This document shows positions 48,113-64,000 of a stretch of 64,000 nt of DNA, one piece after another. The position numbers and the translations under genes are program-made. The stretch's first letter is position 1. Each line of letters opens with the position of its first letter. Source of the stretch: Naegleria gruberi. Taxonomy: Eukaryota. The DNA is taken from NCBI GenBank assembly GCA_000004985.1, contig GG738857.1, one strand, 5' to 3'. The notes below the pieces were generated by a model. The model was not told where the DNA came from. It made no database searches and saw only the letters and a list, made by a program, of their open reading frames with translations.

Positions 48113-50583
48113 ATGACAAAAGTATCACCACTTCTAGATGAACAACAAAAAGATGCTGCCAATAAGAATCAGCAACACTCTGATATTAGTCAAGCTCTGA
48201 AACTCTTCTCTATCAAGACATGCTTGATATTCATGACAAGTATGCTTATTTTAATGAGGTTTGTACCCTATTCTTTATTGGTGTTAATCAATGATTTTGT
48301 AACCGACACAGTGTTGTAATTTTATCATCCATTTGGATTAGTTGCTTCAGTCCAACAGTTTCAGTCATCTCTTCCCAAGTAAGAGATGCAGAGTTCAATC
48401 GTATTGTATCCCACATTAAGCAAACCATGAATGAAGTGACCATGGTTTTAGAAACAGCCAAAGTTCAGATCGACAATCAAAGACCATTTCATTTGGATTC
48501 AACGTTGGAGCAATTGACTTATTCTTTGTACAGATCAGAAATATTGACCTTCCATCCTGATCTCATTCTAGCTATTTATATTGGCGAACCATTTGGATGG
48601 GAAGGTGGAATGCTACTCATTGGAAAAGATCACATGTATTTTGATTTAATTCGTGGTGTTGGTATTAGTTTGTATCCATGTAAAGACATTCAACTTGATT
48701 CATGTCAAAGAAACAATACTCCTTCAACCACATTTGCTTATTCTTCCAACGTTGTTTCGTATACTGCTTTGAAACGTCCTGGTGGTCCAGTATTTACTTT
48801 GAGTTATGCTGACAAGACCTTGCCATCAATTACATTCTTGACACTCATTACAAGTTATCCAAATCCAGCTGGATCAACAAATAATACCTATCCTTACTCA
48901 TTCCACCTTGGTTATGATATGAGTGTTGGTTCAGTTTCAAAGTATTTGACAAATTTTACATCAGCAATTTCAGGATCTAAGGCTTTTACAATTGAAATTG
49001 AAACTGGATATATTATCAGTTCTGATGTAGCAGATGCACGTGTTGCTGAATGGGATGCTAATGGAAAGGAATCTAGAAAGACTGCTCTGAATTTTGAAGA
49101 TCCAGAAACTGTTGAAATTGGAAAGATGGTCTATAATGCCTTTCCTGATTTTACTAAGATTCCATGCAACAGTGGAGCTGTTATTTCCGGATCAATGAGA
49201 TATGTCTCTGTCTATAGATATTGTACAGATACAAAGATCGATTGGTTGATTGTCTTTTCTGTACCTCAATGGAATTATATTGGAACAATGATAATTGCTA
49301 TTGTAATTGCTATTGGAAGTGGAGTTATCATTACATTGGTCTCAATTTTGATTGCAGTCTTGATGTCAGTAAGAATTGTGAAACCATTCCAAAACTTGAT
49401 AACTGCATTCGAAATGGTTGCCAACATGAAATTGGATGGTTTTTCAATTTCCAAGACTAGTTTTAAGGAAGTGAGAGTTTTACAATATCACTTTATGAAA
49501 ATGGTTTCCTCCATTGAAAAGTACAGAAGTTTCATTCCAGCTCACTTACTTTCAGAAATGGACGATGCAGAAGCTGCTGAAATTGAACATGATGATGCCA
49601 CTAGTATGTCAAGTGTATCAATGGCTGCTAGGTCTTTGCATCATGGACTTTCTGATAAATCAGTAAGAAACAGTATGAAGAAGGCTGCTGCCAGTCATGC
49701 CTCAATGGAAAAAGGCCACGTAAGAAATAGATTTGCACTCTATTTGGAAAAGAGAAAGGTTAGTGTTGCCTCTCTTAGAATAGAAGGATTGGGTAATTGG
49801 ATTAGCCACTTACATCACCAAGATGTTGTCAATTTGTTGAGTGATGTTTTCGAACAAATTACAATTGTAAATAAGACATCTGGAGGTCAAACAGGTCCAT
49901 TCGAGAATGCAACTATTTTAATTTACTTTAATGCAGCTAAGGATCAAGCAGATTATATTGAGAAAGCCATTTCAACAACTGCCAATCTCAATACTAAATT
50001 GGAGCAAATCAGAGAAAAAAAGTGGAAAGGAATGGAAACATTCAGACATAATAATCATATATTGAATCAACTCAAATTCAGATTAGCTTCATCGATCCAA
50101 GAAACAACTTGTGGTAATGTTGGTACCAAAGATGCAAAATCATTTACAGTACTCGGAAGTGTCAATTATAACTTGGAATCACTCTTGGAATGTGCCAGAG
50201 AATTGAACGTAAATGTTGTAATTTCAGAACCATTGAAAATAACTTGTAATTCCTACCATACCAGAATGATAGACTCGCGTAGCATTTGTGCAGATGAGGT
50301 TGTTGGAAAACCATGTGCAGATGAAGATTTACATTTTAATAAGGTCAACATATATGAAATTGGTGAACCAACCTCCATTGATAGTGATGAATGGATGTAT
50401 GAATTACAGCAACAAGAAAAGAAGGACAAGTGGAAGAAGTATAACGAAGCAACCAAAATGTATTTGGAAAATTGCTTCCCCGAGGCAACAATGTTGTTCA
50501 AGGAATATCTAGAGAAGAATCCAAACGATTTACCTGCAATGAATTTTATTGCAAAATGTTGTGAAATGGTAACTGAAATGTAA
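48113..50583 (+). CDS. Receptor-type membrane protein: TM1, extracellular sensor domain, TM2, juxtamembrane helix, degenerate class III nucleotidyl cyclase homology domain, C-terminal helical region. Two exons: 48113..48258 and 48312..50583 (53-nt intron GTTTGT...CGACACAG)
   Basis: Exon 1 gives MTKVSP...IKTCLIFMTSMLILM. Splicing yields ...S-VVILSSIWISCFSPTV, which is colinear with the downstream paralog. The cyclase-like block reads VSVASLRIEGLGNW...FRLASSIQETTCGNVGTKDAKSFTVLGSVNYNLESLLECARELNVNVVISEPL. It follows the class III pattern (FaDIvGFT ... RIGIhtGpvvaGviG ... GDtVNlASRMES ... IlVSe) but lacks the metal-binding Asp and the Arg. Confidence 0.75.
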
Positions 50584-51370: not shown

Positions 51371-53956
51371 ATGACAAGAATAACACCCATGTTCGGCATT
51401 GACTCCTCTCACAATGCAGGAATCTCCTTCACCAACAACAAGTATAAAGCAAATAACATCACCCCCGCCTCTAAGGAGGACAACAACAGTAATCTATCTA
51501 GTAATGAAGGAGAAGAAGCAGTGAATTTACAAGAAGAGAGACGATACCTATGTGGATCTATCAAGTTTTTGTTAATATTTCTCATTTCATTACTTCTTCT
51601 CATTTCAGTGTTCTTTTTATCAATTATTTGGATTAGTTGCTTTAGTTCGGCAGTTGTGGATTTAAGCTCTCGCATGAGAGCTCAGGAATTTGATAAAATC
51701 ATACAATTTACCAAGAAAACAGTTAATGATGTGCTGTTAGTGACAGAATCTGTCAAATCTCAACTATATTATGATTTTGATTTTAGTAACATGATTGAAC
51801 ATCACTTACATCGAGCTATGAAAGTTGCTCAAGCTAATTTACCCAATGTAACACAAGGAGTCTATGTTGGTGATCCATTTGGTGGATATTTTGGTTTTGC
51901 ACATTTGAGTGGTGAAATAACCTATTTCAATTTAACACCAAATTGTAATCAAGTTTACTTTGTTTGTAAAAATTTTGATACGAGTGAAAATTGTGATAGA
52001 GGAACAGAACCAGAATTTGTATTTCCTCCGTACACATCGAATTATGTAGCAGAGATGGCTTCGACGAATCCTGGCAATCCAGTTTTCACACTTTCCTATG
52101 TGGATCCATCACTTCCTTCTTTTGTATTCATGACAATGGTTTCGTCCATCAAGACTGGACAGCAGCCAATCAAGCCAGGAGCTTCATTTTCCTATTATTT
52201 TGCCTACGATATGACTGTCATGTCAGTTTCCACATTTTTGGTGGACATTACAACTTCAATACATGGGAGTTCTTCTTTTATTATTGAAACACAGTCGGAA
52301 TTTGTGATTGCAAGTGATCATCCTGAAGTGAGTGTGGCCATAGTGGATAAGGATGGAAATGTTGAAAGAAAAACAACTGCCACTTTTGGAGGACAAGTTA
52401 CCAAAATTGGAAAAATAGTTTATGATACTTTTGAAAAATTAACTTCAATTCCTTGCAATGAAGAACGAGTTTTATCATTGACAGAATCAGTAGTATCAAT
52501 TAAGAGATTTTGTTCAAAGGAAGGAATTGATTGGATTATCATATTAAGCGTTCCTCAATGGAATTATTTAGGATCGATGATTATTGCTATTGTTTCGGCA
52601 GTTGTTGGTTCCATACTCATAGTTTCTGTCGGTATTGTTGTGGCCATTATATTTTCACTCAAAATTGTGAGACCATTTGTTAATTTAATTAGTGCTTTCG
52701 AATGGGTTTCTCTAATGAAATTGGAAAATATCAATTTGTACAAGTCGTCATTTTCTGAAGTGAAAAGTTTACAGTTTCATTTCAAGGAAATGATTGAAAG
52801 GATTAAGTTGTACAGAAAATTTATTCCTCCTCATCTATTAGTTCAATTGGATGCTAATAATGTAAATCAACAAGAGGAAACATTTAAGAAAACTTCAAAT
52901 ACAGCTGAAACAAGTTTGAATGTAACTTCATCTTCGAAAAACAACAAATCCTACTCACAAAAAGAATCTAACCACGATGATCCTCAATCATCTGGTGATT
53001 TGAGGAGTAAGAATTCGAGTGGAGCAAATTCTGGACCAAATGCCAACATGTTTAGTTTATATTTGGATAAGAGACAAGTCACCTTATTGAATATTTATTT
53101 GGAAGGATTAAATGAGTGGTTTGTTGTGATAAATCCAACTGAAATAGTCACTATATTGAGTGAAATATATGATGTAATTGTCAAGCTGGTGAGATTGACA
53201 GGTCAAGTTGGGCAAATTGAAGACGAAACCATTCCAATACATTTAAACGCAACAAGTGATCAATCTCAACATGAATTGAAAGGTATTCAATTGTGTCACT
53301 CACTACTCTCCAAGCTTAATGCTTATAAGGAATCAAAATTGATGAATCATGCAATTGTTTCAAAATACGATGAGGAAGTTTTCGAAAATTTCAAGTTTCG
53401 TATTGTTGCCAATAGCCAGAGTGCATATTGTGGAAATTTGGGAACCAAACAAGCCATGTCCTTCTCCATAATTGGTAGTTCACAACACAACCTCAAAATC
53501 ATGACCATCCTCGCCAAAGAGCTTGATATTCCAATTTTAATCACCGAAGATTTATATGAAAAGGTGGAAAACAAATTCCAAGTAAGATATGTGGATACTG
53601 TCCAATTGGTCAATGATCAGCATTTCTCTAATCCATATTTCACTACCCACACTCGATCTAGACTCTACGATTCAATGAAAGTATTCGAATTGGGTGAAAT
53701 TAACACAGTTTCCCAAGATGAATGGATGTATGAATTAGATGCAAAGGAAAAGAAGAAGAATAGATGGAAAAAGTATAACGATGCTTGTTTCTTTTTCTTT
53801 GCCAGTAGATATGCAGAGGCCAGCAACATGTTGGAGGAATATTTGGATGAACTGATATCACCAACTGGAAAGCAAGATATTGTTGCTTTGAAATTACTTG
53901 ATAAGTGTAAGGATAGAGCTGCAGATTGTGTGGAAAGTTTTGAAAATTTCAAATGA
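51371..53956 (+). CDS. Tandem paralog of 48113..50583: a 2-TM receptor-type protein with a degenerate cyclase homology domain (861 aa, single exon)
   Basis: Colinear blocks are shared with the upstream gene: MT(K/R)..P N-terminus, TM1 IKFLLIFLISLLLLISVFFLSIIWISCF, PVFTLSYVDPSLPSFVFMT, and DWIIILSVPQWNYLGSMIIAIV...KIVRPFVNLISAFEWV. The cyclase-like block is VTLLNIYLEGLNEW...FRIVANSQSAYCGNLGTKQAMSFSIIGSSQHNLKIM. The C-terminal DEWMYEL...WKKYN motif is also shared. Confidence 0.8.
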   Translation: MTRITPMFGIDSSHNAGISFTNNKYKANNITPASKEDNNSNLSSNEGEEAVNLQEERRYLCGSIKFLLIFLISLLLLISVFFLSIIWISCFSSAVVDLSSRMRAQEFDKIIQFTKKTVNDVLLVTESVKSQLYYDFDFSNMIEHHLHRAMKVAQANLPNVTQGVYVGDPFGGYFGFAHLSGEITYFNLTPNCNQVYFVCKNFDTSENCDRGTEPEFVFPPYTSNYVAEMASTNPGNPVFTLSYVDPSLPSFVFMTMVSSIKTGQQPIKPGASFSYYFAYDMTVMSVSTFLVDITTSIHGSSSFIIETQSEFVIASDHPEVSVAIVDKDGNVERKTTATFGGQVTKIGKIVYDTFEKLTSIPCNEERVLSLTESVVSIKRFCSKEGIDWIIILSVPQWNYLGSMIIAIVSAVVGSILIVSVGIVVAIIFSLKIVRPFVNLISAFEWVSLMKLENINLYKSSFSEVKSLQFHFKEMIERIKLYRKFIPPHLLVQLDANNVNQQEETFKKTSNTAETSLNVTSSSKNNKSYSQKESNHDDPQSSGDLRSKNSSGANSGPNANMFSLYLDKRQVTLLNIYLEGLNEWFVVINPTEIVTILSEIYDVIVKLVRLTGQVGQIEDETIPIHLNATSDQSQHELKGIQLCHSLLSKLNAYKESKLMNHAIVSKYDEEVFENFKFRIVANSQSAYCGNLGTKQAMSFSIIGSSQHNLKIMTILAKELDIPILITEDLYEKVENKFQVRYVDTVQLVNDQHFSNPYFTTHTRSRLYDSMKVFELGEINTVSQDEWMYELDAKEKKKNRWKKYNDACFFFFASRYAEASNMLEEYLDELISPTGKQDIVALKLLDKCKDRAADCVESFENFK

Positions 53957-54062
53957 ATATAGGTTAATACTGATCATGATAAAAACAATTTGTACATTTA
54001 ATAACATAATAAACATTATGAATTGTTGTTTTATTGTTGTTTGATTTGTAATTATTCTATGA

Positions 54063-54625
54063 ATCAACTCTGGTAGCATGAAATATCGGAACTTGGTAAA
54101 TTGACAACATGACGAAAATCTGATAATAAATATGATGTTTATTATCTATTTAAATAGTAGTACTAAAAGACATGATTCAAGTTGGTGAAGTACATGTTGA
54201 GTTATGGTCCATGTACTTTTTCAAAATTCACATGTACCTATCCCTATCATAACTTGACCAAAATTGTAAGAGAAAGTTCTCTTACCTACTATTGACCATT
54301 CCGAACAATACTACATTGACAGTTTTCCAACTTGTCCAGTAGATCCAGCAGTGATGATGAATTTAGTGAAAATTTTGACATTTCACCAAAATTACATTAC
54401 TAAAAATTAATTTCCACAAATACTATTATTATATTGATGGAAAACAATAATGATGTTGGTGAATGATCCGATGATGGAACATAATCCACCAATAAAAATT
54501 ACTATTATTAATACTATATAGATCATGTTGAGATGATGATGTGAAAGTTTGGTGGTTTTATGATGTAAAACCACTCCAAAAATCATCATGTCCTCCTTGA
54601 GTAGAAGAATGTTGAATATTTTTTT
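54063..54625 (+). repeat. Dispersed repeat, copy A (about 560 bp). Same family as 57650..58290
   Basis: About 75-85 percent identity by eye over long stretches (for example tgataataaatat..tgtttattat.tatttaaatagtagt..aagacat...caagttggtgaagtacatgttgag.tatggtccatgtac). Contains no credible ORF. Confidence 0.7.
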
Positions 54626-54879
54626 TATGATGGGTTCAAAAATATTGGCAACAAACAGTCCATCGACTCGGTTGATTCTTGGAGTAGTTTCACCACAGCA
54701 TCTCTATATCACTGCTCTGGCAGAAATGGAAGAAGATTTGAATACAGACTCATCACAAGGGATAGGAAGGATTATATTAATATTAAATTGAAATTCAGAT
54801 TATTGGAATATTTTTGTACCGTGCATAGATGAATCAAGTATTTGTAAATTGATGAATATTGTTTTCTCTCCCTATCTGA

Positions 54880-55140
54880 ATCTATCATCATTTAAATAAT
54901 AGTAATTGTTGAAATTTAATCCTTCATCATGATTTGGAAATAATTTTATTATATCATCATCGTAACAACTACCAACCATCATTGTTATTTATCATCATTA
55001 TAATAGTAATATTTGTGGAAATAAATCTGATAGTAATATTTTAATTCAAATATTTTCACTAAAATCATCATCACTGCCAGATTTATATGATAATTTGGAA
55101 AACTTTCAATCTAGTATTGTTCTGCATCAACTACCTGTTT
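54880..55140 (-). repeat. Inverted partial copy of the same dispersed repeat family. A further fragment lies at about 55290..55370
   Basis: The reverse complement matches copy B at 58000..58170 (ccaaccatcattgttatttatcatcattataatagtaatatttgtggaaataaatctgat). Confidence 0.6.
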
Positions 55141-55594
55141 ATTGCAAAAAGTGAAGTAACTTTGCCAAAATCAAGATATAGATGCTATTTTGTAGTTTGG
55201 GCAAAATACTTCTCAATACGGATCACGGAATGTCAAGAGCTCATTCTTACAACACGATAATTCATTATAACTGCATGTTTGTTATTAAGATCCTTCCACC
55301 ACCACGATTATTAATATTACAACTGTGATGGTAATTGTTCCGATGATGCTTTACCAACATGAATTTTTCCTAAGAGAGGTGCAAGAAAGGCCTCTCAACA
55401 AGCGCATTTTACGTTCCCAGAGACAAAGCCAACGGAACCCTAGTGAGTAACATGATGATTCATTACTGGATGTGTGCTATTAAGCTATCACTGTAAATCG
55501 ATTATTACCACCACGATTATTTCTATGAAGCTTCAAAATCCTATTTTTTGCTTCCACTAGTGTTTGTTTCGCTTGCCAACCAAAACCTTAAAAA

Positions 55595-57063
55595 ATGTTA
55601 ACACGTTATTGCAACACCAGTAGCTATTCAACATGGTTAGTATTAGGGATGCTTGTTGCCTTTCTAATCGTCTTGCAACATTGTTCATCCAATGTTGATG
55701 GAGCAGCAACTTCAAATGGTACACTAAGGGAATGGCTCACCTCTTTGCAAAATGAAGCAGCTTCATTAGAACGCTCAGCTTTACAATTGGAAATGGCGAT
55801 TGCTTTGTTGACTAAGGCAAATTCAACAAGTACATCCCTTAGAGCTTCTCAACTTGCAAAGATTAGAAAGTCTATTGCCTTACTTGCAAGTGAAATTCAA
55901 ATCATCAACGAAACATGCTCTACATACACTGGTCAAAACTGTGATAATGCCGTCTGTAATTCAAAGTGTTTGAGCTGTTTTTCTAATAATAATTGTATCC
56001 AGTGTACTGGAAATTGGGATGGAAAAGAATGCTCAATTTGTAAAACTGGATGGGGTGGCTCTGATTGCAACACTCCAGTATGTGATTCTAAATGTAGTAT
56101 GTGCTCATCGCCAGGAGTTTGTTCTGCTTGCTATGGTAACTGGAATGGTGTTACTTGTTCAACATGTAATTTAGGATGGACTGGTGTTGATTGTAATACA
56201 CCAATTTGTGAAGTCAAGTGTAAGAACTGCTCTGCACCAGGTCAATGTTTAACATGTTCAGGTAATGGAATGGAAATGATTGTTCAACTTGCAAATCAGG
56301 ATGGACTGGTATTGATTGTAACACACCTATTTGCGATTCAAAATGTGTGAATTGTACTTTACCTGGTCAATGTAGTACATGTATTGGTAATTGGAATGGA
56401 ACATCTTGTTCAACATGCAGAATTGGCTGGAATGGAACTAATTGTACCACACCAGTATGTGATTCTAAATGTGCTAATTGTACATCACCAGGAGTTTGTT
56501 CTGTTTGCTCTGGAAACTGGAATGGAACAACTTGCTCTACTTGTAAGACTGGTTGGACAGGTTCTGATTGTAATACACCAATTTGTGACGCCAAATGTAC
56601 AACATGTGCCTCACCAGGTGTTTGTTTTGTATGTTCAGGAAACTGGAATGGAGCTACTTGTTCAACATGTAAAACTGGTTGGTCAGGTACCAGTTGTGCA
56701 ACACCAATTTGTGATGCCAAATGTACAACTTGTGCCTCACCAGGTGTTTGTTCTGTATGTTCTGGTAATTATGATGGTGCAACATGTTCCACTTGTAAAT
56801 CAGGATGGGGTGGCTCAACATGTTCAGTCTCGACAACATATACCATTTATGCTGGTGCTGACAATTCGTACACTCTCTACCATAATGGTGTTGCTATTCT
56901 GTCAGGAAGCACTTGGAGTTCTCCTCAAACAACTACAAGAGTATTGAATAGTGGTGATATTTTGATATCTAAAGGTTATGATTCTGATGGAATGGGAGGA
57001 CTCGTGGTTGAAGTTTACAACTCAAACAATGATTATTCAACTGGTAGAGTTACATGGTATTGA
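55595..57063 (+). pseudogene. Secreted tenascin-type EGF-repeat protein (about 12 near-identical 31-aa repeats) with a C-terminal non-repeat domain. A 1-bp frameshift lies at about 56268. Otherwise a continuous CDS
   Basis: Signal peptide LVLGMLVAFLIVLQHC. Repeats follow the pattern NTPxCDxKCxxCxSPGVCSxCxGNWNGxTCSTCKTGWTGSDC. At 56262-56275 the sequence ggtaatggaatgg replaces the ggtaattggaatgg found in every other repeat, which splits the ORF into 55595..56350 and 56347..57063. TGA at 57061-57063 lies directly before a 49-N gap. Confidence 0.65.
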
Positions 57064-57065
57064 CN

Positions 57066-57114
57066 NNNNNNNNNNNNNNNNNNNNNNNNNNNNNNNNNNN
57101 NNNNNNNNNNNNNN
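57066..57114. other. Assembly gap (49 N)
   Basis: n-run. Confidence 1.
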
Positions 57115-57224
57115 TCAGAGAGGTTGGTGACGGCTTGGGATGATATTCAGATGAGGAATAAACTGATTGGCAACAAACTTGGAACGCTATAAACTTTGTG
57201 GAATGGATAATCCTTTGTTAACGT

Positions 57225-58616
57225 GTCATTTTCTCTCTGGTTTGGGATCCGCACATGAGCAGATCTTATCACTTATCATTGTGATATATAAATAGTCTAT
57301 GTGGCTCTTCCAAATAATCATAGCATGAATCCCTCCTCATTTCATTTAAAGAGGAATTATAATTATTTGGTGAATTACCTCTGGATATTTCTCAAAATTT
57401 CAAAATCTCGAATACACCATAAAACAGCAAACAATGAATAGAGTATCGACTATGTATTGCGTACATCCTGCCAAAACACTTTTCACCATAGGAGACAATG
57501 TAGGTGATATGAAATTTAAATAAAAACAGAAAAATCAAAATCTTCATGGTTTCAACGAAACAAGACGAAATAATTGATATGGTACATCTACAATAGTACT
57601 AATAAAAGTTTATTAATGTTTCAAGATGATTGGCTGTGTACTTTTGGCATGAATCATGATTGGTGACCATGAATAACCCGAAGTTGACAAAAAATACAAA
57701 ATGATGAAAAACTGATAATAAATATATTGTTTATTATGTATTTGAATAGTAGTGATGAAAGACATTTTCCAAGTTGGTGAAGTACATGTTGAGATATGGT
57801 CCATGTACATGTTGAAAATATACATGAACCTATCATCATGATAACCAATAGGAAAATGTTCGGAAGTGATTTTACCTGATGGAATCGACCATGCTGAACA
57901 ATACTAGATTGAAAGTTTTCCAAATTATCATGTGAATCTGGCAGTGATGATGATTTTAGTGAAAATATTAAATTTCACTAAAATAATACTATTATCAGAT
58001 TTATTTCCACAAATATTACTATTATAATGATGATAAATAACAATGATGATGGTTGGTAGTTGTTCCGATGATGATGTACCAACTTGAATTTTTCCAAATA
58101 ATAAAATTATTTCCAAATCATGATGAAGGATTGAATTCCAAAAATTACTATTAATAATATTATTTAAATGATGATGAGATGATGTGGTGAAATTCTTGGA
58201 GTTAATAGATGTGAAACTACTCCAAGAATCAACACAGGCATGATATACCTGATGTTGATATAATATTTTTAAGAAATATTTCAAAGTCCTTTCATTTTTC
58301 AAAAAAGGCAAGTGGTGAAAATTGGAATGGACCTTCACTGCCAAGAATTAAAATTGGAATGGCTACTGTGTGATTAATATTGGCGCATAACATGTGTTAA
58401 AAACACGAAGGTGTAATATTCTATATTTATTGAGATAATCAATAAAGTTTAGAATTTGTCAGAAAAACTTGCCCTGTCGCCAAGAATTCATATTTCCATA
58501 TTTGGGATCTGGACTTTTATAGTCTGGAAACATGCTAGATGTGTTCTATATTCAATAATCTATATGAAAATCAGAAGAAATAAAATTAACTCTTCAATTG
58601 AGCTTATTGATATTAC
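57225..58616 (+). repeat. Composite repeat X-Y-Z, copy 1. X is 57225..57303, Y is 58392..58470, Z is 58512..58616. X and Y are separated here by the insertion above
   Basis: X is tctctctggtttgggatccgcacatgagcagatcttat.... Y is catgtgttaaaaacacgaaggtgtaatattctata...ataatcaataaagtttagaatttgtcagaaaaacttg. Z is gacttttatagtctggaaacatgctagatgtgttctatattcaataatctat.... All three recur at 59545..60330. Confidence 0.7.
57304..58391 (+). mobile_element. Candidate about 1.09-kb insertion of a non-coding dispersed element (includes repeat copy B at 57650..58290) into another repeat. It is flanked by the 5-bp direct repeat ATGTG
   Basis: The host repeat is contiguous in its second copy (59545..59700: ...aatagtctgatctacATGTGGtaaaaacacgaagg). 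Here it is interrupted: aatagtctATGTGG|ctcttcc...1088 bp...gcgcataac|ATGTGTtaaaaacacgaagg. No terminal inverted repeats or ORF were seen. Confidence 0.45.
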
Positions 58617-59544
58617 TATATGTTTTCCCCGTATTTTTACAATGCTCCTTACAAAAAAGGAAATATTAAATTTAATACTTAGTGAAATAAAAATATTATT
58701 TATTATTCTTGTTCTAATTGATGTTTTCTACAAGATTCTGTTTTACTGAATATCAGTTATTTGTATTAACCAAGAAAACATGCTCGTCTTACTACCACAT
58801 ATGAAAATTTTGAAATCACTTTTCTCGATAACTAAAGAGCCAAATCCGTAACAAACTTGATATTATGATTGTTAACATAATTAATAATGACCATACGGTA
58901 TGTTTCTATAACATCCAGTGTTGTTATTGAGATATGCTTTGTTGAAGTTGAGTGAATTTGCTTAAGTAATAAATCGGTGTTATTGGCGCATCCAATTACC
59001 CCTACAGGTAAATCAGCTTTGGGAGCATTCCATGTTTTTTGGGAGCATCACAAAAATGCGCCGAGAACCTGACCACAGATATACTTAGTAGTACCGTTTG
59101 GTGGTTTAGTGTGTTTCTCGATCTAAATTCGAGTTTGAATATAATTTTTGTATATTTTCACAATTTATTTTGTTGCTATATGAGAATTGATTTTTTGTAT
59201 TTTATTTTTTTGATAAATTATTTGGTGAATATATATATATATATATATGTGAACAAAAATTATATTTATCTATGTTAGAAAAATCATTTCCCTTTTATTC
59301 TTCATCATGCTCCTCCTCATGTTTTTTACACATCCTGTCTTTATCAAATCCCATTCTCACTACATCCTTTTCATCATAATTCCTCGCAAATTCATTTATC
59401 TGTTCAGATAACATTTATTTACCCCTTAAAAGTGATTTTCCATTCTTCATTTTACATGAGTTTTTCGGTGATTTCTTGGTAAGAACTCTTTATTAGTAGA
59501 CTTTTTGTATTTCATTTTTTTCTGTGGGTTTGGTACCTGTCATT

Positions 59545-60330
59545 ATCTCTCTGGTTTGGGATCCGCACATGCTCAGATCTTATAGTTTATCAATGTGATG
59601 TATAATAGTCTGATCTACATGTGGTAAAAACACGAAGGTGTAATATTCTATATATATTGAGATAATCAATAAAGTTTAGTATTTGTCAGAAAAACTTGGG
59701 TTTGGTTAGGATTCAGAGTTGATTTATTTGGGTTATTTAAGAGATTACTTAGTGAAGATTCATATCATTGATTATATTTCTTATCATCTATTAATGATGT
59801 AAATTTGATGGTTTCATTTATTATATTGATAGATATTTAAAGGTCAGGTCAGAACTAACTTTTGAAATATGGACTTTGAGAATTCAAATGTTTGGGACGT
59901 GAATCTACTCATTAGATTGAATAGGTATTGCTAATAAAGGAACATTTCATTGATTTATTGATCATAACGGTCAAATTGAGTTGAATGGAAGTGAATCACA
60001 TGTTGATTAATCGTGGATGGGTAGTTTCGCCACGTAGTGGTGCAACTACCAACCTTTGTAGATTGAATCAGGTTGATTTGAATGCAATAGATTCTTCTCC
60101 AATTCAATGATCAATATTCATTATTCGGTTTGATTTCAATAGCTTGCTCAACAAGCTTTGAATTAATATTCCAGTAATTAACGGCAGTCTATTTTTAAAT
60201 TTAATCAAAGACCATATATAGCATCTTGACTTTTAAAATCTGGAAACTATCTAGTGTGTTCTATATTGAATAATCTATTTGAAAATGAGAAGAATTAACT
60301 CTTCTATTGAGTTTTATTGGTATTGCAAGG
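59545..60330 (+). repeat. Composite repeat X-Y-Z, copy 2. X and Y are contiguous at 59545..59700. Z lies at 60222..60330 after about 520 bp of unrelated sequence
   Basis: See copy 1. X and Y adjacent here define the empty site for the insertion at 57304..58391. Confidence 0.7.
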
Positions 60331-60929
60331 TATTACGATTATAATAATCTACACAGAAATCACTCTTGAAATATAAACTGTACTAAAATGTATGAGAAAC
60401 ATAATGGTGGTAGAATTAATCAATAAATCGTTGAAATGACTGAGATGGAATGTAAACTATGGTCTATTTGTCATGTAATGGTGACTAGACAGTGTCAATT
60501 TCATCAAATTATTTCAAACTGATTACATTCAATAAAAAACCGTTCTATACATCAAACATGTCATATAGAATGAGTTTCAATATTTAATATTATGAACTGA
60601 CTCTGTTGGATACCATCTCTATAAATATAACAAGATGAAAAGTGTCAACATTCAATTTCACATGCATGTTACAATGGAGAGTCATCACTATATCATCTAG
60701 ATAGGTAATATTTCAAGTTCCAGCGGAATTGACAGTCTAGATATTGAGATGTGCATACTAAGGTTATAGAAGTGTCACCTTCACTGATTACTGACATGAA
60801 TATAACAATTGATTTTATGATTATTGTATAATTAATTCATTATTCAATGATTTTGATATGATGGTAAAATTTAATTTTGAAATTAAGATTGTTCCCTATT
60901 GATTACCTTAGATGTTCCTTAGTTGACTT

Positions 60930-61160
60930 GAAGATACTGAGCCATCAATATGAAACTCTCACAGATTGTTCTCCTCATCAAGAGGAGTGTATTCATATTT
61001 GATACTTGTATGATATTTTGTAAAATGAATGAGATGGAGTATATTCTATATGTTGAAATGTGACAATTTGACAGATTGTTATTATTATCATACTGAATTC
61101 AACTCTAATAGACTTAAATTGATACCATATGTATAAAAGTGTGATTAAATGTATCTGGTA
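60930..61160 (+). repeat. Repeat W, copy 1. It recurs at 63640..63840 (spacing about 2.7 kb), which suggests a higher-order tandem unit
   Basis: Shared blocks are ctcacagattgttct.c.catcaagag...attcatat.tgata.ttgt...aatgaatgag.tggagt and aaattgataccatatgta.aa.agtgtgatta. Confidence 0.5.
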
Positions 61161-61284
61161 AAGTTACATGATGGTTGGTTATACTTTCATTGAGATAGAG
61201 TGTACACTTGGATATAAGCACTTTTGACATTGAACATTAACTGACTTACTAATTGTAAGTAATACGAATTGTTTCCAAACTATT

Positions 61285-61516
61285 NNNNNNNNNNNNNNNN
61301 NNNNNNNNNNNNNNNNNNNNNNNNNNNNNNNNNNNNNNNNNNNNNNNNNNNNNNNNNNNNNNNNNNNNNNNNNNNNNNNNNNNNNNNNNNNNNNNNNNNN
61401 NNNNNNNNNNNNNNNNNNNNNNNNNNNNNNNNNNNNNNNNNNNNNNNNNNNNNNNNNNNNNNNNNNNNNNNNNNNNNNNNNNNNNNNNNNNNNNNNNNNN
61501 NNNNNNNNNNNNNNNN
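61285..61516. other. Assembly gap (232 N)
   Basis: n-run. Confidence 1.
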
Positions 61517-62285
61517 GGAAGAAATCTTTAAATATGAATGTGAAAATAAACTTGATATTCTATCTCTACACATCGAATGGAGCATTTTCATGTATAATTT
61601 GTTGATTGAAGTGATATATTTGATAGACTTGGTCTTGACTTGTGTTTCCTTTCAGTCAACTTTGGAAAATAAACATTTACATTCCCATTGTACCATTTCT
61701 AATTCTTATGATATGAAATTGAATTCTATATCACTATAGATCATATAAATCATTTTGGTAAAGTTTCAATAGGTGGTCCTTTTTCAAGATTTCCGTCCTT
61801 ATCATACAAGTGGACCATGTGTGGTTGAGGGAAGAAATCTTTAAATATGAAAGTTAAAATAAATTTGATATTCGATGTTTACTCATCAAATGGAACATTT
61901 TCATGTCAGGATTCAATATGTTTTGATGAGAAACTCAAAAGTTATAGTTGACCTCTTTTACCTCACAACTTCCCTTTTCACTTGATACTTTTATATCTAC
62001 AGACTTGAAATTTTGAAATTTCATATGAGAGTGATTATAAATGTTGTTAATGATGATATAGACTATATAATCTCATTAAAGGATTTTGAAATTATTATCC
62101 TTCCTATGGTTTCATTTTACAAATTTTTAATCTTACATTATTTACAATGTTAATATTTTATAAATTGAAAAACTAAATATAATACATTATTCTACTCATC
62201 ATTTACAATCGAATGATATAATATTCAATAATTTGGGCTAGGGTTTGATCTTTGAAACATTGGGTCTGGACTTAAATATTTTTCA

Positions 62286-62699
62286 GGTTTTAGGTTTGGG
62301 TTTAGGTTTGGGTTTTTAGGTTTGGGTTTGGGTTTGGGTTTGGGTTTGGGTTTGGGTTGGGTTTGGGTTTGGGTTTGGGTTTGGGTTTGGGTTTGGGTTT
62401 GGGTTTGGGTTTGGGTTTGGGTTTGGGTTTGGGTTTGGGTTTGGGTTTGGGTTTGGGTTTGGGTTTGGGTTTGGGTTTGGGTTTGGGTTTGGGTTTGGGT
62501 TTGGGTTTGGGTTTGGGTTTGGGTTTGGGTTTGGGTTTGGGTTTGGGTTTGGGTTTGGGTTTGGGTTTGGGTTTGGGTTTGGGTTTGGGTTTGGGTTTGG
62601 GTTTGGGTTTGGGTTTGGGTTTGGGTTTGGGTTTGGGTTTGGGTTTGGGTTTGGGTTTGGGTTTGGGTTTGGGTTTGGGTTTGGGTTTGGGTTTGGGTT
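62286..62699 (+). repeat. Telomere-like hexamer microsatellite (TTTGGG)n. It is imperfect at its 5-prime end (ggttttaggtttgggtttaggtttgggttttt) and then perfect for more than 60 units. It runs directly into a 50-N gap
   Basis: Direct read of the sequence. A second short copy starts at 63262 (gggctagggtttgaaggttgggtttgg). All ORFs predicted inside it (poly-GL, poly-PK, poly-TQ and similar) are artefacts. Confidence 0.9.
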
Positions 62700-62749
62700 N
62701 NNNNNNNNNNNNNNNNNNNNNNNNNNNNNNNNNNNNNNNNNNNNNNNNN
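62700..62749. other. Assembly gap (50 N) placed inside the hexamer array
   Basis: n-run. The true array length is unknown. Confidence 1.
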
Positions 62750-64000
62750 CATGTTGGTAAAGTTTCAATAGGTGGTCCTTTTTCAAGAGATTTCATCCTT
62801 TTGTCATAGTTGACCATGATGGTTGAGGGAAGAAATCTTTAAATATGAAAGTGAAAATAAATTTGATATTCGATGTTTACTCATCAAATGGAACATTTTC
62901 ATATTAGGATTCAATATGTTTTGATGAGAAACTCAAAAGTTATAGGTGACCTCTTTTACCTCACATCTTCCCTTTTCACTCGATACTTTTATATCTACAG
63001 ACTTGTAATATTGAAATTTTATATCAAACTGATTATGAATGTTGTTAATGACGATATAAATTATATAATCTCATTAAAGGATTTTGAAATTCTCATTCTT
63101 CCTATAGTTTCATTTTAGAAATTTTAATCTGACACTATTTACAAAGTTAATATTTTATAAATTGAAAAACTAAATATACCACGTTGTTCTACTCATACTT
63201 TCCAATCGAATGATATAAAATTTAATGATATATGAAGAAGTTTATAATTTTGGGCTAGGGTTTGAAGGTTGGGTTTGGAAACGTGTTGTTTTGATTTGTT
63301 TCTTCTGTGGCTCCATGGTCTTTATGATCTGATATAGGGTTATTAAGCGCCGTTTGGGTATTTTGTTGGTTTTTTTAGTAAAGTTTTAAAAAAAGTATAT
63401 AGTTCTTATCTAGTTATCGAGTTGTGGTGTAAATGTCTTGTTTTCAAGCTATTCGAAAGTAGTAACGATTTCGATATTCCGTTAGTTTGCGTCACTTTGC
63501 GGACGGACTTATATTCAATCAATTTGGTTGTCATTCATATTGATGCGTAGAATTTTTGAGAGTATTTTTGAATGTACGTTATTTTTATCTACGCATGAAT
63601 GAAAAGTACAACAATGATCAAGAGGAATTGAGTCATGAGTATGATACTTTCTCAGATTGTTCTACGCATCAAGAGTATTCGATTCAGGATTCTATTCATA
63701 TATGATATTTGTTATACATATATTGAATTGAATGAGCTGGAGTGCCATCTTGTTGTTAAAAGTTGAGTCGACATTAAGGTATTCAGTAAATTGATACCAC
63801 ATGACTAATTAGAGTGATTATACGTCATTATATCAATTTATTTGAAAACAGACTTGCTTTTGGACCTTTCAGATTTCTAGCCACATATGACAGATCACCA
63901 AGTACTATCTACTGGATGCATTTCTTGAAATAAAAGTATATAATTTGAATAAAGTCCACTTTATTTGAGATGTACTACATGATAATAAAGTTTATTTTGA

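What the first reader, a model, noticed from the sequence alone, without database searches (positions are those of the whole stretch)
57299..58397. Empty-site versus filled-site evidence for a 1.09-kb insertion with a 5-bp target-site duplication
The X-Y repeat is continuous at 59545..59700 (…tagtctgatctacATGTGGtaaaaacacg…). At 57299 it reads tagtctATGTGG|insert|ATGTGTtaaaaacacg. That is the pattern expected from transposition with an ATGTG duplication. The insert has no obvious TIRs, so the element class is unknown (non-LTR fragment, or a novel DNA element with very short TIRs).
Basis: seen in the sequence. Interest (0 to 1): 0.5.

Follow-up and report, generated by a model that had tools for sequence, protein, structure and literature searches.

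The report
1.09-kb insertion splitting a short repeat
In a gene-poor stretch of the Naegleria gruberi genome, one of two copies of a ~164-bp repeat is split by 1,087 bp of non-coding, locally repeated DNA bounded by a 5-bp direct repeat; this is most likely an ordinary insertion of an unclassified non-autonomous element, but transposition itself is not shown.

Summary
Copy B of the repeat is continuous (59535-59698). Copy A is split into 57221-57304 and 58392-58471 by 1,087 bp (57305-58391). The junctions read ATGTGG / ATGTGT, so the exact repeat is 5 bp. The window is Naegleria gruberi nuclear DNA. The insert is non-coding (29% GC) and has no Pfam domain, no protein homologue, no significant terminal inverted repeats, no TG..CA ends, no poly(A) and no Helitron ends. 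Its core (57582-58280) belongs to a local repeat family. There is an old copy at 53992-54630 (78%), a young partial inverted copy at 54671-55127 (95.6%) and a fragment at 55306-55373. None of these shares the insert's termini. A degenerate tandem paralogue of the host repeat (XY', ~50% identity, P about 0.007-0.03) has the two halves contiguous. This weakly favours insertion in A over deletion in B. The rest of the genome could not be reached, so copy number and shared termini remain untested. Verdict: a real insertion/deletion difference, probably (~0.5) insertion of an unclassified non-autonomous element with a 5-6-bp target duplication. Rivals are deletion by microhomology and repair-mediated copying. 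Interest is low.

The parts
57221..57298 (+). X half of host repeat copy A (XY_A)
   Evidence: 88.3% identical to 59535-59611.
57299..57304 (+). Left copy of the flanking direct repeat, ATGTGG
   Evidence: Read directly. It abuts the insert terminus at 57305.
57305..58391 (+). The 1,087-bp insert: non-coding, 29.4% GC
   Evidence: Absent from copy B. No Pfam domain in six frames. The 138-aa ORF has no homologue. No TIR.
57305..57581 (+). Left part of the insert, unique in the window
   Evidence: BLAST and nhmmer find only the self-match.
57582..58280 (+). Core of the insert, member of local repeat family R
   Evidence: Homologous to 53992-54630 (+), 54671-55127 (-) and 55306-55373 (+).
58281..58391 (+). 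Right part of the insert, unique in the window
   Evidence: Only the self-match is found. Its last 23 bp do not significantly resemble the host repeat (P 0.28-0.40).
58392..58397 (+). Right copy of the flanking direct repeat, ATGTGT
   Evidence: Read directly. It follows the insert terminus at 58391.
58398..58471 (+). Y half of host repeat copy A
   Evidence: 58392-58471 is 96.2% identical to 59619-59698.
59535..59698 (+). Host repeat copy B (XY_B), continuous: the 'empty site'. GATCTAC is at 59612-59618 and ATGTGG at 59619-59624.
58470..58640 (+). XY'_A, a degenerate tandem paralogue of XY directly downstream of copy A. It includes block Z (58496-58614).
   Evidence: About 50% global identity to XY, z 2.6-2.7, P 0.007 against random non-coding segments. 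The TTTGGG motif sits in the same register. It serves as an outgroup in which the X-end and Y-start are contiguous.
59697..60345 (+). XY'_B, the same paralogue downstream of copy B, interrupted by about 473 extra bp (59734-60206) with no flanking direct repeat
   Evidence: 60212-60324 is 86.6% identical to 58496-58614. Four-way alignment; junctions read.
53992..54630 (+). Old copy of family R (78% ungapped identity to insert 57649-58073)
54671..55127 (-). Young partial inverted copy of family R. It is 95.6% identical to insert 57891-58180 and has a 23/23 match to 58211-58233. It carries its own 168-bp extra segment at 54712-54879.
55306..55373 (+). Short fragment of family R (89% over 45 bp)

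Best explanation
A 1,087-bp piece of non-coding, AT-rich DNA was inserted into copy A of a ~164-bp low-copy repeat in a gene-poor intergenic region of Naegleria gruberi. The inserted DNA is the most complete copy in this window of a local repeat family (R). Its other pieces lie 2.2-3.4 kb upstream and have different ages. The most likely mechanism is integration of a non-autonomous mobile element at a 5-6-nt staggered cut, followed by fill-in. This would duplicate the target ATGTG(G). The 7 bp GATCTAC next to the left junction were lost at or after integration, and one base of the right duplicate later changed (G to T). Shown: the indel, its exact ends, the 5-bp direct repeat, the repeated nature of the core, and the absence of coding capacity and of TIR, LTR, poly(A) or Helitron ends. 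Weakly shown: the direction (insertion, not deletion), from the degenerate paralogue XY'. Inferred: that a transposition enzyme, rather than DNA repair, did the joining.
For: The split and continuous copies have sharp junctions. The ATGTG repeat at both junctions is unlikely by chance. The insert core is repeated elsewhere at 78%, 89% and 95.6% identity, so the family was copied several times, most recently at about the age of the host-repeat divergence. The tandem paralogue XY' has the X-end (AATAATCT) and Y-start (TGAAAATCAGAAG) 3 nt apart in both loci. Continuity of X and Y therefore predates the A/B split (P 0.007-0.03 for the homology). The contig is uninterrupted between the N runs at 57065-57114 and 61285-61516, so the insert is not a scaffolding artefact.
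Against: No other copy in the window shares either terminus of the insert. The related pieces are internal fragments, which is not what transposition normally leaves behind. There are no significant TIRs (P 0.29), no TG..CA ends, no A-rich tail and no protein domain. The junction is untidy because 7 bp are missing in A. Indels flanked by 4-6-bp direct repeats are common between the young R copies: 24 nt between GTGAAA repeats and 9 nt between TATTA repeats. Slippage or microhomology events are therefore frequent here. Classified TEs make up only 0.28% of this genome (bioRxiv 10.64898/2026.06.24.734286). The outgroup homology is only about 50% identity.
Confidence: 0.5

Rival explanations
1. 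Deletion in copy B. The ancestral unit was X-insert-Y, and copy B lost the 1,087 bp by slippage or microhomology-mediated joining between two ATGTG repeats. This leaves one ATGTG and mimics an empty site.
For: Only two full copies exist, so direction rests on a weak outgroup. Direct-repeat-flanked indels are common in the same region. The two loci differ by another large indel (about 473 bp, 59734-60206) that has no target duplication. The insert has no transposon hallmarks. The genome is compact and TE-poor (bioRxiv 10.64898/2026.06.24.734286).
Against: XY' shows X and Y contiguous in both loci. This rival would therefore need a gain before the A/B split and then a loss. The insert core exists independently of X and Y elsewhere, so it must have been joined to XY by an insertion at some time anyway.
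Confidence: 0.2
2. Insertion without transposition. A break in copy A was repaired by copying or capturing DNA from a nearby R copy, through template switching or end joining. The ATGTG repeat would come from fill-in of a staggered break or from microhomology, and the 7-bp loss from end processing.
For: The closest relative (95.6%) lies only 2.2 kb away in inverted orientation. That region is itself a mosaic of inverted and direct R fragments, typical of local rearrangement. The junction shows a small target deletion. At the right junction copy A and copy B share ACATGTG, 7 bp of possible microhomology.
Against: The upstream copies do not contain the outer 277 bp and 111 bp of the insert, so no donor for the whole insert is visible. 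A 5-6-bp duplication on both sides is longer than typical fill-in duplications (general knowledge of end joining, not tested here).
Confidence: 0.2
3. Assembly artefact: the insert, or the second copy of the repeat, is a misjoin or a collapsed haplotype in a draft assembly.
For: The region sits between assembly gaps (57065-57114, 61285-61516) in a repeat-rich part of the scaffold.
Against: The insert lies inside an uninterrupted 4.2-kb contig. A 5-bp repeat cannot drive a misassembly. Copies A and B are only 88-96% identical with unalignable flanks, far too divergent for alleles.
Confidence: 0.03

Closest known systems
Non-autonomous DNA transposons / MITE-like elements with short target-site duplications (5 bp is typical of Transib, for example)
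   Same: Short, non-coding and AT-rich. Bounded by a 5-bp direct repeat of target sequence. Related fragments lie nearby, as expected from local hopping.
   Different: No terminal inverted repeats (tested, P 0.29). No second copy with the same ends in the window. 1.09 kb is large for a MITE.
Solo LTRs of Copia/Gypsy retrotransposons (4-6-bp target duplication)
   Same: The size range, the non-coding nature and the 5-bp flanking duplication.
   Different: The ends are GC...AC (or CT...AC), not TG...CA, under every placement of the repeat. No internal retrotransposon sequence or RT/integrase remnants lie nearby.
Cryptons / integration of a circular intermediate by recombination at a short shared core
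   Same: No TIRs, no LTRs, and a short direct repeat at both junctions that could be the crossover core.
   Different: No tyrosine-recombinase ORF. Nothing here can test for a circular intermediate. This is a resemblance only.
Microhomology-mediated deletion or replication slippage between short direct repeats
   Same: It produces exactly this two-state pattern, with one copy of the repeat left. Smaller events of this type are visible in the same region.
   Different: The outgroup XY' suggests the continuous state is ancestral.

Membership tests
TIR DNA transposon / MITE | Terminal inverted repeats at both ends | tested here: not met
   The best local alignment of the first 40 nt against the reverse complement of the last 40 nt scores 8, against a null mean of 6.8 (P 0.29). 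The terminus-anchored score is 1-4, against a null 95th percentile of 5.
TIR DNA transposon / MITE | Target-site duplication of fixed length flanking the element | tested here: met
   ATGTG is exact on both sides (57299-57303 and 58392-58396); the sixth base differs. The chance of a repeat of 5 bp or more is 0.9% per position pair.
TIR DNA transposon / MITE | Multiple copies sharing both termini | tested here: inconclusive
   None is found in the 64-kb window. The rest of the genome could not be reached.
LTR retrotransposon (solo LTR) | 5'-TG...CA-3' termini with short inverted ends | tested here: not met
   The ends read (G)CTCTTCC...GCGCATAAC. No rotation within the 5-bp ambiguity gives both TG...CA ends and a flanking duplication.
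LTR retrotransposon (solo LTR) | 4-6-bp target duplication | tested here: met
   A 5-bp exact repeat.
Non-LTR retrotransposon / SINE | A-rich or simple-repeat 3' tail; copies sharing the 3' end with 5' truncation | tested here: not met
   There is no A- or T-run at either end. The related copies lack both ends of the insert. No tRNA-like part is present, no Rfam match reaches the gathering score, and no RT domain is found.
Helitron | 5'-TC and 3'-CTRR ends, subterminal 3' hairpin, insertion between A and T without duplication | tested here: not met
   None of the six possible placements of the ends gives TC...CTRR. A flanking duplication is present.
Crypton / tyrosine-recombinase element | Tyrosine recombinase ORF; integration of a circle at a short shared core | tested here: not met
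   No Pfam domain in any frame. A non-autonomous derivative cannot be excluded or tested here.
Introner-like element | Insertion in an exon with functional splice sites at the ends | tested here: not met
   The host repeat has stops in all frames and no ORF. On the minus strand the ends happen to read GT...AG, but there is no coding context.
Microhomology-mediated deletion (in copy B) | The longer state is ancestral; one copy of a short repeat is left at the junction | tested here: inconclusive
   The junction repeat is present. The only outgroup, XY', shows the short state, but it is only about 50% identical (P 0.007-0.03).

The most novel reading that the evidence does not exclude
The 1,087-bp insert is a full-length copy of an undescribed, recently active, non-autonomous mobile element family of Naegleria gruberi. 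It would lack TIRs, LTR-type ends and a poly(A) tail and would make 5-6-bp target duplications. That would point to an unusual integration mechanism (for example Crypton-like, or unknown) in a genome where almost all repeats are unclassified.
Probability: 0.1. Interest if true: 0.45.

Novelty: new member of a known kind. Interest (0 to 1): 0.15.

Why it matters
If this is a true transposition, it would give exact ends and a target duplication for one of the many unclassified repeats of N. gruberi. Classified TEs make up only about 0.28% of that genome, and most repeats have no assigned class (bioRxiv 10.64898/2026.06.24.734286; PMC12344493). That would help repeat annotation and the interpretation of methylation on 'young repeats'. 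Otherwise it is an ordinary structural difference between two paralogous pieces of intergenic DNA. It shows that indel turnover is fast in this gene-poor stretch.

Tried and rejected
- **Reaching the rest of the genome.** The N. gruberi proteins of this window are not indexed for contig retrieval. The only retrievable relative was a 3-kb Logan contig from another organism.
- **Exact-pattern scans.** Scans for the host-repeat core and for two parts of the insert core found nothing in metagenome, viral or prokaryote collections.
- **Pseudogene fragment.** I tested whether the insert carries part of the neighbouring paralogous genes. blastx and tblastn against both window genes and two genomic paralogues gave nothing.
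- **Coding capacity.** No Pfam hit in six frames of 57115-61284. The 138-aa ORF has no homologue.
- **Structured RNA or tRNA-derived SINE.** No Rfam match reaches the gathering score, no tRNA is found, and XY folds no better than shuffles.
- **A longer (~30-bp) duplication at the junction.** BLAST and nhmmer extensions into the insert end suggested one, but it is not significant.
- **A and B as the two LTRs of a small retroelement.** The homology decays gradually rather than ending sharply, there are no TG..CA ends, and there are no internal RT remnants.
- **The 10-bp TGGGTTTGGT flanking copy B as a target duplication.** Its 172-bp spacing equals the tandem unit period, the second unit is in register, and 10-bp repeats at spacings of 100-400 bp are common (119 pairs). 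It is more likely the leader of a tandem unit.
- **Mitochondrial or viral origin.** No coding or rRNA signal and no viral match.
- **Literature.** No described Naegleria element with these features was found.

Full report
**Source and setting.** The window is nuclear DNA of the amoeboflagellate Naegleria gruberi. The ORF at 51371-53956 is 100% identical over 861 aa to an NCBI 'predicted protein [Naegleria gruberi]' on a 573-kb contig. The window is gene-dense and about 33% GC, with six runs of N. The finding lies in an unusual 4-kb stretch (57190-61284) with no convincing ORF and 26-29% GC. This stretch sits downstream of a Cys-rich repeat gene (55595-57190) and is bounded by assembly gaps at 57065-57114 and 61285-61516.

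**The observation.**
- Copy B of the repeat is continuous from 59535 to 59698. At the critical point it reads aatagtct-GATCTAC-ATGTGG-taaaaacacg.
- Copy A reads aatagtct-ATGTGG (57299-57304), then 1,087 bp (57305-58391; termini fixed), then ATGTGT (58392-58397)-taaaaacacg.
- The left half (X) is 88.3% identical between copies and the right half (Y) 96.2%.
- The exact direct repeat is five bases, ATGTG.

**Is the repeat more than chance?** Two random positions 1,093 bp apart in this window show a direct repeat of 5 bp or more in 0.9% of trials. The hexamer ATGTGG occurs 20 times in 64 kb. Allowing for the freedom the 7-bp gap gives the alignment, chance remains at about 1% or less. BLAST and nhmmer extended the Y homology 21-23 bp into the insert. 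This is not significant (P 0.28-0.40), so the duplication is limited to ATGTG(G).

**What the insert is.**
- It is 29.4% GC.
- Its longest ORF (138 aa, minus strand) has no homologue among 5.8 billion proteins.
- A six-frame scan of the whole 57115-61284 interval finds no Pfam domain at E up to 1.
- It is not a fragment of the neighbouring paralogous genes.
- It contains no tRNA, and no Rfam match reaches the gathering score.
- The two ends are not inverted repeats (local score 8 against a null mean of 6.8, P 0.29).
- No placement of the ends within the 5-bp ambiguity gives TG...CA, TC...CTRR or an A-rich tail.

**The repeat family R.** The central 700 bp (57582-58280) is repeated. I call this family R.
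- An old copy lies at 53992-54630 on the same strand (78% ungapped identity).
- A short fragment lies at 55306-55373 (89%).
- A young partial copy lies inverted at 54671-55127. It has only 11 mismatches in 248 aligned bases (95.6%), plus a perfect 23-mer. It is interrupted by its own 168-bp extra segment.
- The outer 277 bp and 111 bp of the insert are unique in the window.
- R sequences have therefore been copied several times at different dates within 4.5 kb. None of the other pieces shares the insert's ends.
- Between the two young copies, small indels are frequent and often bounded by short direct repeats. Examples are 24 nt between GTGAAA repeats and 9 nt between TATTA repeats. Slippage-type events are clearly common here.

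**Direction of the event.** With two copies alone, an insertion in A and a deletion in B between ATGTG repeats are indistinguishable. I therefore looked for an outgroup.
- The block the self-comparison found downstream of each copy (58496-58614 and 60212-60324, 86.6%) is part of a degenerate tandem paralogue of the repeat itself, here called XY'. The roughly 30 nt in front of it belong to the same unit.
- All four units carry TTTGGG at offset 30-31 from the unit start. Global identity of XY to XY' is about 50%. That is 2.0-2.7 standard deviations above random non-coding segments of the same region (P 0.007-0.03).
- In both XY' units the end of X (AATAATCT) and the start of Y (TGAAAATCAGAAG / TGAAAATGAGAAG) are separated by three bases. 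An alternative local alignment instead matches ATCTATATG-AAAATCA to GATCTACATG..AAAAACA.
- Either way, X and Y are contiguous in the outgroup. This makes the continuous state ancestral and the 1,087 bp an insertion in copy A. The evidence is moderate, not strong.
- XY'_B carries its own extra segment of about 473 bp (59734-60206) with no flanking repeat. Large indels without target duplication therefore also occur at this locus.

**Most likely mechanism (confidence about 0.5).** A non-autonomous element of family R integrated into copy A at a 5-6-nt staggered cut. Fill-in then duplicated ATGTG(G). Seven adjacent target bases were lost at or after integration, and the right duplicate later mutated G to T.
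- Shown: the indel, its ends, the repeat, the repeated core, and the lack of known hallmarks.
- Weakly shown: the direction.
- Inferred: the enzyme.

**Rivals.**
- Deletion in B by microhomology (about 0.2). Supporting it are the frequency of such events here and the lack of transposon features. The outgroup argues against it, as does the independent existence of R.
- Repair-mediated copying from the nearby R copies (about 0.2). Supporting it are the 95.6% relative 2.2 kb away, the mosaic of inverted fragments upstream and the untidy junction. Against it, no donor for the outer parts of the insert is visible.
- Misassembly (about 0.03). This is unlikely because the insert is inside an uninterrupted contig and the copies are far too divergent to be alleles.

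**Comparison with known kinds.** The element works most like a non-autonomous transposon with a short target duplication, but it fails the TIR test. It has the duplication length of a solo LTR but not the TG..CA ends. It lacks everything that defines a non-LTR element or a Helitron. A Crypton-like or circle-integration mechanism would fit the pattern of no TIRs plus a short shared core, but this cannot be tested here. The literature held here reports that classified TEs make up only 0.28% of the N. gruberi genome and that most of its repeats are unclassified (bioRxiv 10.64898/2026.06.24.734286; PMC12344493). An unclassifiable repeat is therefore not surprising in itself.

**Limits.** Exact-pattern scans of the metagenome, viral and prokaryote collections found nothing.

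**Verdict.** This is a real and well-delimited structural difference, most likely an insertion of an unclassified non-coding repeat with a 5-bp target duplication. Transposition is plausible but unproven. It is ordinary in kind, and interest is low (0.15).

Noticed in passing
window 58470-58640 and 59697-60345: The host repeat is followed in both loci by a degenerate tandem paralogue (XY', about 50% identity, same register of a TTTGGG motif). The locus is therefore an old tandem pair that was later duplicated as a block.
   Followed up: yes
window 59734-60206: About 473 bp are present only in XY'_B, with no flanking direct repeat and no other copy in the window. The segment contains a strong 13-bp-stem GC-rich hairpin at 60020-60050 (-20.1 kcal/mol, z -2.7).
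   Followed up: partly
window 59525-59534 and 59697-59706: The 10-mer TGGGTTTGGT occurs only twice in the window, exactly flanking copy B of the repeat at a spacing of 172 bp. It looks like a target duplication but is more likely the conserved leader of the tandem unit.
   Followed up: partly
window 59566-59579 and 59612-59623: In copy B the target ATGTG and the 7 bp GATCTAC form an imperfect inverted repeat with upstream CACATGCTCAGATC. The insertion point is at the foot of this small hairpin. Copy A has lost one arm.
   Followed up: no
window 53992-55373: The intergenic region after the gene ending at 53956 is a mosaic of R fragments. An old direct copy and a young inverted copy meet almost head-to-head near 54634, forming a large imperfect palindrome.
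   Followed up: partly
window 62289-62699, 61751-62232 and 62750-63229: A (TTTGGG) array of about 68 units lies between two 480-bp direct repeats that are 90% identical. An assembly gap (62700-62749) sits next to the array. This could be a real structure or a collapsed or duplicated assembly region.
   Followed up: no
window 56003-56808: The gene upstream of the finding contains five or more tandem 126-bp (42-aa) Cys-rich units (CxxCxGNWNGxxCSTCxxGW...). Its 3' end is interrupted by the N run at 57065-57114.
   Followed up: no
window 48427-50583 and 51371-53956: These are two tandem paralogous genes for large predicted membrane proteins with no Pfam domain on record. Further paralogues lie on other N. 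gruberi contigs (39-61% identity).
   Followed up: no
window 59295-59414 (minus strand): A small charged 39-aa ORF (MLSEQINEFARNYDEKDVVRMGFDKDRMCKKHEEEHDEE) lies just upstream of copy B. It is the only protein-like reading in the 4-kb gene-poor stretch.
   Followed up: no
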